This document shows, one piece after another, positions 51,742 through 51,814 of a DNA stretch of 64,000 nt. The notes below the pieces were generated by a model. The model saw nothing but the letters and a program-made list of their open reading frames with translations. It was not told the origin of the DNA and did not search any database. The stretch lies in IMG/VR virus record IMGVR_UViG_3300028410_000746, one strand, 5' to 3'. Made by a program: the position numbers and the translations under genes. The number at the start of each line of letters is the position of its first letter. The stretch's first letter is position 1. The DNA is from a virus. Lineage: Duplodnaviria > Caudoviricetes.

Positions 51742-51814
51742 TAGTCACGATGGGACTCGAACCCATACACGGGGATTTAGAATCCCCTGCTCTAACCCGT
51801 TGAGCTACACGACT
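51742..51814 (-). tRNA. Amber suppressor tRNA, anticodon CUA
   Basis: AGTCGTG TA GCTC AACGGGTTA GAGC A GGGGA TTCTAAA TCCCC GTGT ATGGG TTCGAGT CCCAT CGTGACT A; full cloverleaf, CCA not encoded. Confidence 0.95.

What the first reader, a model, noticed from the sequence alone, without database searches (positions are those of the whole stretch)
51742..51814. Amber suppressor tRNA in a genome that still uses TAG as a stop
Seen: a canonical cloverleaf with loop TTCTAAA (anticodon CUA), A1-U72 and A73. Several genes here end in TAG (e.g. 38087, 41467), and the large structural genes are open without internal TAG. Inference: this points to selective readthrough rather than genome-wide code-15 recoding. 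The charged amino acid (e.g. Gln or Lys) cannot be read from sequence alone.
Basis: partly seen in the sequence, partly recalled or inferred. Interest (0 to 1): 0.7.

Follow-up and report, generated by a model that had tools for sequence, protein, structure and literature searches.

The report
Phage amber suppressor tRNA with client
A 373-kb lake-water phage that otherwise uses the ordinary genetic code carries a real stop-codon-reading (UAG) tRNA, and its one visible target is a nearby hydrolase gene that opens ATG-TCG-TAG; the same pairing recurs in dozens of unrelated phages, possibly including the laboratory mycobacteriophage Bxz1.

Summary
Window 51742-51814 (minus strand) is a canonical 73-nt tRNA with anticodon CUA, A1-U72 and A73 (ARAGORN; Rfam 65.7 bits).

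Over 87 kb of this 373-kb phage the standard code fits slightly better than TAG-as-sense. About 10% of genes end in TAG, and long genes have no in-frame TAG.

There is one clear client. A PTH2-fold (peptidyl-tRNA-hydrolase-like) gene 1.8 kb upstream on the same strand opens ATG-TCG-TAG, with no other usable start.

- 57 loci have a TAG within the first nine codons.
- 27 of 31 gated loci with enough flank carry a suppressor tRNA of the matching anticodon, usually just downstream.
- One TGA-gated gene sits beside a tRNA(UCA).
- The base after the gate is a purine in 35 of 38 distinct gates.

The tRNA bodies differ between loci, so the link looks functional rather than inherited. Bxz1-type mycobacteriophages show ATG-TAG-GTG followed by a tRNA(CUA).

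A second amber tRNA lies 10.8 kb beyond the window. It has the same tRNA-Phe-like body but a different acceptor stem. The amino acid inserted, and why the hydrolase is gated, remain inferred.

The parts
51742..51814 (-). Amber suppressor tRNA 'sup1', anticodon CUA, A1-U72, A73, tRNA-Phe-like body
   Evidence: ARAGORN; Rfam tRNA 65.7 bits; cloverleaf MFE; closest E. coli tRNA is tRNA-Phe
51904..51933 (-). Promoter-like site TTGACC-18 nt-CATAGT with TG extension, about 90 nt upstream of the tRNA
   Evidence: The only promoter-like hit in 50800-56600 (1.3 expected by chance, so weak alone). Its TGTGGCATAG box resembles the phage's recurrent TGTGGTAYAT box.
51815..51903 (-). Structured leader (branched hairpin) between the promoter and the tRNA
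   Evidence: Fold of 51742-51905: -59.9 kcal/mol, z -2.25, with the tRNA cloverleaf kept. Function not tested.
53595..53963 (-). PTH2-like gene (122 codons) opening ATG-TCG-TAG and ending TAG-CGG-ACG-TGA; the only clear in-frame TAG client in the window
   Evidence: Pfam PF01981 35.4 bits (cut-off 23), residues 6-94 on profile 2-100. AlphaFold pLDDT 92, and the top 15 PDB matches are all Pth2, TM 0.70-0.77. The next canonical start is the GTG at codon 45 of the reading frame (residue 42 of the domain query), which would delete strand 1 and helices 1-2.
53955..53957 (-). Gate codon TAG (codon 3), followed by A
   Evidence: ATG-TCG-TAG is also kept in the nearest relative L010, 59% protein identity.
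54019..54047 (-). TTGACA-17 nt-CATTCT promoter-like box ahead of the PTH2-like gene (read by eye; below the scanner's threshold)
   Evidence: Sequence. Comparable TTGACA boxes precede the homologues in L010, Bxz1 and ScoobyDoobyDoo.
51930..53635 (-). Two ORFan genes (52946-53635, 229 aa; 51930-52949, 339 aa) lying between the gated gene and the tRNA
   Evidence: No Pfam or PHROG match. In most other loci the tRNA follows the hydrolase gene directly.
37496..42105 (-). Cluster of TAG-terminated genes (37496-38086, 38087-39202, 40106-40822, 41467-42105) that would be exposed to readthrough
   Evidence: In-frame extensions would be 1 codon, a 197-codon fusion, 10 codons and 86 codons.
46824..47594 (-). 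Second, ungated protein with a canonical PTH2 domain (256 aa)
   Evidence: PF01981 102.6 bits; NCBIfam Pth2 101 bits

Best explanation
The element is a working amber suppressor tRNA that the phage transcribes from its own promoter, in a genome that otherwise keeps the standard code. Its demonstrable job is to decode the UAG at codon 3 of a PTH2-fold hydrolase gene 1.8 kb upstream on the same strand. That protein is therefore made only when, and in proportion as, the suppressor is expressed, charged and able to beat release factor 1. The tRNA and the stop-gated hydrolase gene form a two-part module that recurs in many unrelated large phages.

Shown: the tRNA is real; the gate has no alternative start; the gate is conserved; gate and anticodon co-occur and match; the standard code holds over 87 kb.

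Inferred: that the tRNA is expressed and charged, with Lys, Phe or Gln as candidates; and the purpose of the coupling. My preferred purpose is a self-sensing loop in which hydrolase output tracks suppressor activity. It would either limit suppression or clear the peptidyl-tRNA by-products of readthrough. The roughly 10% of phage genes that end in TAG would be partly extended as a tolerated side effect.
For: tRNA: and it is identical in a second assembly. A36-A37-A38 and U33 are present, features that by textbook knowledge favour efficient UAG reading.

Gate: the PTH2 domain begins two residues after the TAG, and no ATG, GTG or TTG occurs before codon 45 of the reading frame, i.e. residue 42 of the domain query.

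Conservation: L010, at 59% identity, keeps ATG-TCG-TAG.

Association across 110 homologous loci: 57 are gated by TAG, 1 by TAA and 1 by TGA, always within the first nine codons. After dereplication, 27 of 31 gated loci with at least 1 kb of downstream flank carry a suppressor tRNA, against 17 of 38 ungated loci (Fisher p 3.5e-4). All 31 TAG gates that have a suppressor have CUA, and the single TGA gate has UCA. Of 71 suppressors, 63 lie downstream on the same strand, at a median of 364 nt.

Context: the base after the gate stop is G in 20, A in 15, C in 3 and T in 0 of 38 distinct gates. This matches the classical rule, recalled from my own knowledge of Bossi 1983 and Miller & Albertini 1983, that a 3' purine favours amber suppression.

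The suppressor scaffolds differ widely: class I, class II and Phe-like.

Standard code.
Against: There are no expression or charging data; no RNA run holds this DNA. Only 23% of the genome was inspected. Here the tRNA is 1.78 kb from the gated gene with two genes between, further than in the sampled loci. About half of the ungated homologues also sit beside suppressors, so gating is not the whole story of the link. Many gates are followed by ATT, ATA, ATC or GTT, so re-initiation at a non-canonical start after a 2-5 codon mini-ORF is not excluded. The active site of this diverged PTH2 branch lacks the canonical GKGK stretch, so its substrate is unknown.
Confidence: 0.7

Rival explanations
1. 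Partial or genome-wide TAG reassignment (code 15, or late-gene recoding as in crAss-like, Lak and other recoded phages). On this reading the tRNA serves many recoded genes in the 77% of the genome I could not read.
For: Recoded phages typically carry TAG suppressor tRNAs and recode late or lysis genes (Borges et al. preprint). This phage has two amber tRNAs. TAG is the rarest stop.
Against: Over 87 kb, including proteins of 1,100-1,500 aa that look structural or tail-like, no gene needs TAG as sense except the gated hydrolase. TAG-as-sense lowers gene count, density and score. TAG ends genes that have a proper RBS and start directly after. No RF2 or GlnRS was found. GC content is 60%, unlike the low-GC route to recoding described.
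Confidence: 0.07
2. The tRNA's main purpose is global: to impose readthrough on host (or rival-phage) UAG-terminated genes, or to counter a host defence that acts on tRNAs or termination. The PTH2-like enzyme would be the phage's antidote, and the gate only a sensor.
For: About half of the ungated PTH2-like genes also sit next to CUA or UUA suppressors, so the enzyme-tRNA link goes beyond gating. In L012-L014 the module sits directly after an Acb2/Tad1-like anti-defence gene. T5-like Aeromonas phages carry a similar CUA tRNA.
Against: There is no direct evidence of a host target. The phage's own TAG-terminated genes would suffer as well. This reading overlaps with the best explanation rather than excluding it.
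Confidence: 0.13
3. The tRNA is a neutral or decaying copy of a tRNA-Phe-type gene with a mutated anticodon. On this reading the early TAG is bypassed in another way: re-initiation at a near-cognate start, or a start-stop mini-ORF used for translational coupling.
For: The body is tRNA-Phe-like and needs only two anticodon changes. In Bxz1-type phages a normal GTG start follows the TAG directly. Many gates are followed by ATT or GTT.
Against: The cloverleaf is perfect and all universal tRNA positions are kept, in two paralogues. Gate stop and anticodon match in 32 of 32 dereplicated loci, including TGA with UCA. The module recurs with unrelated tRNA scaffolds. In this phage no ATG, GTG, TTG or ATT follows the TAG for 25 codons.
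Confidence: 0.06

Closest known systems
Amber suppressor tRNAs of the standard-code jumbo phage XacN1 (Yoshikawa et al. 2018, PMC5852040)
   Same: A phage of about 380 kb using the standard code, with two tRNA(CUA) genes among many tRNAs. Its authors likewise asked what the suppressors are for. XacN1 also encodes a homologue of the PTH2-like domain (H30).
   Different: Those authors read through 18 C-terminal amber stops and found no target. Here a target is visible at the N-terminus of a gene. In XacN1 the homologous domain lies inside a 279-aa ORF with no tRNA within 3 kb.
Stop-codon recoding and 'code change modules' in gut phages (Borges et al. 2022; preprint 10.1101/2021.08.26.457843)
   Same: A phage-encoded suppressor tRNA makes expression of stop-containing genes depend on a phage product. 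[quoted passage not shown]
   Different: There, dozens of late, structural or lysis genes are recoded, the genomes are low in GC, and RF or aaRS genes sometimes accompany the tRNA. Here the genome is 60% GC, one gene is gated at codon 3, TAG is still used as a stop, and no RF or aaRS was seen.
Mycobacteriophage Bxz1 gp154 ('peptidyl tRNA hydrolase') plus Bxz1_gt155 ('tRNA-like product'), and the same pair in other Bixzunavirus and Myrnavirus phages
   Same: A homologous small PTH2-like gene is followed 250-300 nt downstream by a tRNA(CUA). ATG-TAG (or GTG-TAG) lies in frame directly before the annotated start.
   Different: A canonical GTG start follows the TAG, so gating is ambiguous there. 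The tRNA scaffold is unrelated to sup1. I found no paper that links the two genes.
Laboratory amber suppressors built on tRNA-Phe, and classical supF / T4 psu1 suppressors (own knowledge: Normanly et al. 1986; McClain & Foss 1988)
   Same: A tRNA-Phe body with GAA changed to CUA, A73, and A37 after A36; it reads UAG in competition with RF1.
   Different: This one is natural and phage-borne, and it comes in two versions with different acceptor stems. Its charging is not known.
Lambda bar minigenes and Pth (own knowledge)
   Same: A two-to-five-codon ORF ending in a stop is the classic source of peptidyl-tRNA drop-off, which peptidyl-tRNA hydrolase must clear. Here such a mini-ORF forms the first codons of a hydrolase gene.
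   Different: The resemblance is thematic only. No evidence for drop-off was obtained here.

Membership tests
Canonical elongator tRNA (Rfam RF00005) | Cloverleaf with a 7-bp acceptor, D, anticodon and T arms that scores above the family threshold | tested here: met
   65.7 bits against a gathering score of 29; ARAGORN; MFE cloverleaf
Canonical elongator tRNA (Rfam RF00005) | Universal positions U8, A14, G18G19, U33, T54-T55-C56, A58 | tested here: met
   Read directly from the sequence
Nonsense suppressor tRNA | Anticodon complementary to a stop codon, in a 7-nt loop | tested here: met
   Loop TT-CTA-AA
Nonsense suppressor tRNA | Expressed, aminoacylated, and inserts an amino acid at UAG | not testable with these tools
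   No RNA run holds the locus. Needs tRNA-seq, acid-gel northern blots and mass spectrometry.
tRNA-Pyl (ARAGORN's label) | pylT architecture: short D loop without G18G19, 6-bp anticodon stem, 3-nt variable loop, no T-psi-C; accompanied by pylS and pylBCD | tested here: not met
   9-nt D loop with GG, 5-bp anticodon stem and a TTCGAGT T loop. No pyl genes among the Pfam hits in 87 kb.
tRNA-Phe | Body like bacterial tRNA-Phe: D stem, A26, G27-C43 and G28-C42 stem, G44 U45, U20, A73 | tested here: met
   The best E. coli match is tRNA-Phe in all 5,426 genomes; the alignment is; 34 of 38 body positions are identical.
tRNA-Phe | Anticodon GAA, the major PheRS determinant | tested here: not met
   The anticodon is CUA. 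sup1's acceptor and T arms are closest to a phage tRNA-Lys, so the charged amino acid is open.
Code-15 (TAG to Gln) recoded phage | Many conserved genes interrupted by in-frame TAG, and better gene calls with TAG as sense | tested here: not met
   87.4 kb: code 11 gives 102 genes and density 0.847; TAG-sense gives 91 genes and 0.835. Ten genes end in TAG. Only 23% of the genome was covered.
Code-15 (TAG to Gln) recoded phage | Accessory RF2 or GlnRS (present in some clades only) | tested here: not met
   None in the 87 kb examined
PTH2 peptidyl-tRNA hydrolase (PF01981), for the client gene | Sequence match above the curated threshold, and the Pth2 fold | tested here: met
   35.4 bits against 23. 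Profile versus PDB Pth2, E 1e-11. Model pLDDT 92; the top 15 PDB hits are all Pth2, TM 0.70-0.77. It falls below the NCBIfam equivalog cut-offs.
PTH2 peptidyl-tRNA hydrolase (PF01981), for the client gene | Catalytic residues and hydrolase activity | tested here: inconclusive
   An invariant E76 and a near-invariant D78 align near the canonical acidic site, but the GKGK stretch is missing. Activity cannot be tested here.
Stop-gated PTH2-like gene plus matching suppressor tRNA (module defined within this scan) | Stop codon within the first nine codons, no canonical start between it and the domain, and a suppressor of the matching anticodon nearby on the same strand | tested here: met
   ATG-TCG-TAG, with tRNA(CUA) 1,780 nt downstream on the same strand. 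The distance exceeds the largest in the sample, 1,665 nt.

The most novel reading that the evidence does not exclude
Suppressor tRNAs in standard-code phages are not stepping stones to recoding. They are one half of a widespread self-sensing module. A PTH2-fold hydrolase, translated only through an early stop codon that the neighbouring tRNA reads, measures suppressor activity and acts on its products, either as a feedback limiter or as a clean-up enzyme. The module has been assembled repeatedly with unrelated tRNA scaffolds, and with UAG or UGA gates, and it may be present in the cultivable phage Bxz1.
Probability: 0.45. Interest if true: 0.85.

Novelty: new variant of a known kind. Interest (0 to 1): 0.68.

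Why it matters
Why phages that use the standard code carry nonsense suppressor tRNAs has been an open question; the XacN1 authors looked for targets and found none. This work gives a concrete and conserved answer for at least one client: a hydrolase gene gated at its first codons by the very stop that the neighbouring tRNA reads.

The question becomes directly testable, because Bxz1-like phages of Mycobacterium smegmatis show the same layout, although there a GTG start right after the TAG makes gating ambiguous. It also warns annotators that this gene family is routinely mis-started or truncated by standard gene callers: the record for this phage holds a 78-aa fragment.

Natural suppressor-plus-gate pairs with diverse tRNA scaffolds may also be useful parts for genetic-code engineering.

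Tried and rejected
- **In-frame fusion at 38089.** I read 39202-37490 through its TAG as one 570-aa protein. The junction GGAGGA-TAG-ATG is an ordinary stop, RBS and start, and the fused protein has no homologues, Pfam or PHROG match. It is not a readthrough gene.
- **Other early TAGs.** The TAGs upstream of genes at 60486, 43883, 40834, 36918, 23124, 12518 and 4949 are intergenic and not preceded by a usable start.
- **Whole genome.** No genome is held for the window, and the 373-kb ENA record could not be searched. I could only stitch together 87 kb.
- **Close relatives.** None were found by megablast against phages. None were found by neighbour protein, by the single PTH2-like protein or by exact tRNA core in viral contigs. 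Patterns for the Phe-like core found nothing in 185,000 prokaryote genomes. One viral contig (L009) has the same anticodon arm but no PTH2-like gene.
- **Alignment A3** was too diverse to seed a locus search; A4 worked.
- **Expression.** No RNA holder is listed.
- **Amino acid at the gate.** The leaders of ungated homologues are too short and variable to align, so nothing could be inferred.
- **Back-up stops.** TAG-ending genes do not have a closer next in-frame stop than TGA-ending genes (median 14 versus 19 codons, n = 6).

Full report
**1. Observation**

ARAGORN finds five tRNAs in the window. One lies at 51742-51814 on the minus strand and has anticodon CTA. Rfam's tRNA model scores it 65.7 bits (E 4.9e-12), on a par with the neighbouring Val and Gly tRNAs.

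Read directly, it has:
- a 7-bp acceptor stem AGTCGTG/CGTGACT, with A1-U72 and G.U pairs at 5:68 and 6:67;
- discriminator A73;
- U8, A14, G18G19 and U33;
- anticodon loop TT-CTA-AA on a GGGGA/TCCCC stem;
- a 4-nt variable loop and a TTCGAGT T loop;
- no encoded CCA.

The minimum-energy fold is the cloverleaf. ARAGORN's 'Pyl' label reflects the anticodon only, and none of the pylT peculiarities is present. The tRNA is identical in an independent JGI assembly of the same phage (L002).

**2. Setting**

The window belongs to a 373,477-bp lake-water phage contig (ENA ERZ27315555 k141_181878). It is 60% GC, nearly all genes lie on one strand, and it carries tail-fibre-like giants, an SNF2 helicase and a histidine kinase. 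No whole genome is held. I joined the window to three fetched loci to obtain 87.4 kb, 23% of the genome.

The tRNA lies 2.5 kb downstream of a tRNA/Y-RNA cluster. It has the only promoter-like site the scanner finds in 5.8 kb (TTGACC-18-CATAGT with TG), then an 85-nt structured leader. A 57-codon ORF with its own AAGGAG box starts 21 nt after the tRNA.

**3. Which code?**

A simple codon-usage gene caller was run on the 87.4 kb:

| Reading | Genes | Coding density | Summed score | Stops |
|---|---|---|---|---|
| Code 11 | 102 | 0.847 | 8941 | TGA 80, TAA 12, TAG 10 |
| TAG as sense | 91 | 0.835 | 8733 | TGA 81, TAA 10 |

No long gene is interrupted by TAG. The one place where two good ORFs abut in frame across a TAG (38089) reads GGAGGA-TAG-ATG. 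That is an ordinary stop with the next gene's ribosome-binding site and start. The 570-aa 'fusion' has no homologues at all.

No release factor or aminoacyl-tRNA synthetase is found among the proteins scanned or on record.

**4. The client**

I re-tested it.
- The gene opens GGAG-N9-ATG-TCG-TAG-AAC.
- Read through, it matches Pfam PTH2 above threshold (35.4 bits against 23), with residues 6-94 on profile positions 2-100.
- A 40-sequence alignment gives an AlphaFold model of pLDDT 92. Its first beta-strand starts two residues after the TAG, and its top 15 PDB matches are all Pth2 enzymes, TM 0.70-0.77. A sequence profile also hits Pth2 structures at E 1e-11.
- After the TAG, the first canonical start is a GTG at codon 45 of the reading frame (residue 42 of the domain query). 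This is where the public gene call begins, giving a 78-aa fragment, and it would remove strand 1 and two helices.

A systematic scan found no other TAG in the window that has a start closely upstream and coding sequence downstream. The phage also encodes a second, ungated PTH2-domain protein (46824-47594).

**5. Is the gate real and linked to the tRNA?**

The closest relative (L010, 59% protein identity, a different sample) keeps ATG-TCG-TAG. Two N-truncated database homologues chosen blind turned out to be ATG-ACA-TAG (L011) and ATG-TCT-TAG (L012, L013). Each has a tRNA(CUA) within 1 kb.

I then fetched 30 loci from viral contigs and 80 from metagenomes with a family alignment. Each was scored for an early stop and for tRNAs.
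- 57 loci are gated by TAG, one by TAA and one by TGA, always within the first nine codons and with no ATG, GTG or TTG before the domain.
- After dereplication (94 loci), 27 of 31 gated loci with at least 1 kb of downstream flank carry a suppressor tRNA, against 17 of 38 ungated loci (Fisher p 3.5e-4).
- All 31 TAG gates that have a suppressor have CUA. The single TGA gate (L068) has UCA 148 nt downstream. The five UUA suppressors all sit beside ungated genes.
- 63 of 71 suppressors lie downstream on the same strand, at a median of 364 nt.
- Outside the big tRNA arrays, 71 of the 121 tRNAs in these loci are suppressors.
- In 38 distinct gates the base after the stop is G 20, A 15, C 3 and T 0. 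This is the context classically known to favour amber suppression (own knowledge: Bossi 1983; Miller & Albertini 1983).

The suppressor tRNAs are of many unrelated scaffolds, including class II forms. The pairing is therefore not simply inherited as a block. It looks repeatedly assembled, or maintained by function.

**6. Cultured examples**

tblastn against GenBank phages finds the family in 46 cluster-C mycobacteriophage records, XacN1 and Tenacibaculum phages. In four Bixzunavirus genomes (Bxz1, Cane17, IkeLoa, I3) the annotated GTG start of the 'peptidyl tRNA hydrolase' gene is preceded in frame by ATG-TAG. In the Myrnavirus ScoobyDoobyDoo it is preceded by GTG-TAG. A tRNA(CUA) follows 180-300 nt downstream; in Bxz1 it is annotated only as a 'tRNA-like product'. 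Gating is ambiguous there because a normal start follows the TAG, but the layout is the same and the system is tractable.

For XacN1, the authors reported two CUA suppressors and no identifiable target (PMC5852040). I found no paper that links PTH2-type genes with suppressor tRNAs. The searchable library is incomplete, so this is not proof of absence.

**7. The tRNA itself**

A second amber tRNA ('sup2', L004:2614-2687) lies about 10.8 kb beyond the window end. sup1 and sup2 are identical from position 8 to 46 but have unrelated acceptor stems (AGTCGTG versus GCGCCGA) and different T stems.

The shared body is tRNA-Phe-like. The best E. coli match in all 5,426 genomes is tRNA-Phe, and the D stem, A26, anticodon stem, loop flanks and G44-U45 are identical to it. 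Among 124 labelled tRNAs, sup2 is nearest to tRNA-Phe overall. sup1's acceptor and T arms are nearest to a phage tRNA-Lys. The most similar phage tRNAs are CUA tRNAs of T5-like Aeromonas phages.

With U35 and A73, LysRS or PheRS are plausible chargers; GlnRS is a third candidate on U35, although E. coli tRNA-Gln carries G73 (own knowledge of E. coli identity rules). The sequence cannot decide, and the gate position is unconstrained. No phage tRNA-Phe, Lys or Gln was seen in the 87 kb.

**8. Mechanism**

- **Shown.** A bona fide CUA tRNA; a standard-code genome over 87 kb; one gene that cannot be translated in full without UAG decoding; and a statistically supported, specificity-matched, cross-lineage pairing of such gates with suppressors.
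- **Inferred.** The tRNA is transcribed, probably by host RNA polymerase, from its TTGACC-type promoter. It is then processed, charged by a host enzyme, and competes with RF1 at the gate. Hydrolase output would then report suppressor activity.
- **Why couple a peptidyl-tRNA-hydrolase-like enzyme to a suppressor?** This is unknown. I favour a self-sensing loop: either negative feedback on the suppressor's products, or proportional clean-up of peptidyl-tRNA generated by readthrough and by the mini-ORF itself (compare lambda bar minigenes and Pth; own knowledge).

About half of the ungated family members also neighbour suppressors. This argues that the enzyme-tRNA relationship is primary and that gating is an added layer.

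The phage's roughly 10% of TAG-terminated genes would be partly extended, by 1, 2, 10, 86 or, at 38089, 197 codons.

**9. Verdict**

The tRNA as such is a new member of a known kind, namely suppressor tRNAs in standard-code jumbo phages. Together with its conserved stop-gated client it is a new variant: a minimal, single-gene 'code switch' that I could not find described. The same conclusion about the gated gene was reached earlier in this scan on the same DNA (e1-5364522). I reproduced it independently and added:
- the specificity match, including TGA with UCA;
- the +4 purine bias;
- the diversity of tRNA scaffolds;
- the frequency of suppressors beside ungated homologues;
- the cultured mycobacteriophage cases;
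- the 87-kb code test.

Noticed in passing
L004:2614-2687 (about 10.8 kb beyond the window end): A second amber tRNA whose positions 8-46 are identical to sup1, but whose acceptor stem (GCGCCGA, tRNA-Phe-like) and T stem are different. It sits behind a TTTACAG...TGTGGTATATAG promoter and about 270 nt of structured RNA.
   Followed up: partly
window 23897, 24538, 34532, 35137, 35866, 36443, 36934, 54290 (minus strand): A recurrent phage promoter motif TTTACG-N13-(C)TTGTGGTAYAT is found 15 times on the coding strand and once on the other strand in 87 kb. sup1 and the PTH2-like gene instead have TTGAC(A/C)-type -35 boxes, which may put them in a different temporal class.
   Followed up: partly
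window 51815-51903 (minus strand): An 85-nt branched hairpin lies between the promoter and the suppressor tRNA. Its role is unknown; it could be a processing signal or a separate small RNA.
   Followed up: no
window 37490-39202 (minus strand): GGAGGA-TAG-ATG junction at 38089. Amber readthrough would fuse a 371-aa and a 196-aa ORFan protein in frame. The second gene ends TAG-GTG-TGA.
   Followed up: partly
window 37496-42105: Four of the window's six TAG-terminated ORFs cluster here, in a stretch of low codon adaptation with no database homologues.
   Followed up: no
L029:4300-4373, L032:4186-4259, L034:1842-1918, L036:2465-2543, L039:1863-1936: Next to ungated PTH2-like genes, in the place where suppressors usually sit, ARAGORN reports tRNAs with irregular or enlarged anticodon loops: '(ta)', '(ct)', '(aata)', and class-I 'Tyr(ata)'. 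These may be unconventional decoders.
   Followed up: no
L068 and L054: L068 has a PTH2-like gene gated by ATG-ACC-TGA with a tRNA(UCA) 148 nt downstream. L054 is gated by TAA after five codons, but the contig is too short to show a tRNA.
   Followed up: partly
L012:342-554, L013:570-782, L014:308-520: An Acb2/Tad1-hairpin (anti-CBASS / anti-Thoeris sponge-like) gene lies directly upstream of the gated PTH2-like gene and its tRNA(CUA).
   Followed up: no
window about 35281: The ends of the 373,477-bp ENA contig map inside the window (window coordinate = record coordinate + 35281). The window therefore comes from a rotated or circular version of the same genome.
   Followed up: no
L021, L033, L047, L059, L072: Several other phages carry two different tRNA(CUA) genes side by side after the PTH2-like gene. 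This echoes the two suppressors here and in XacN1.
   Followed up: no
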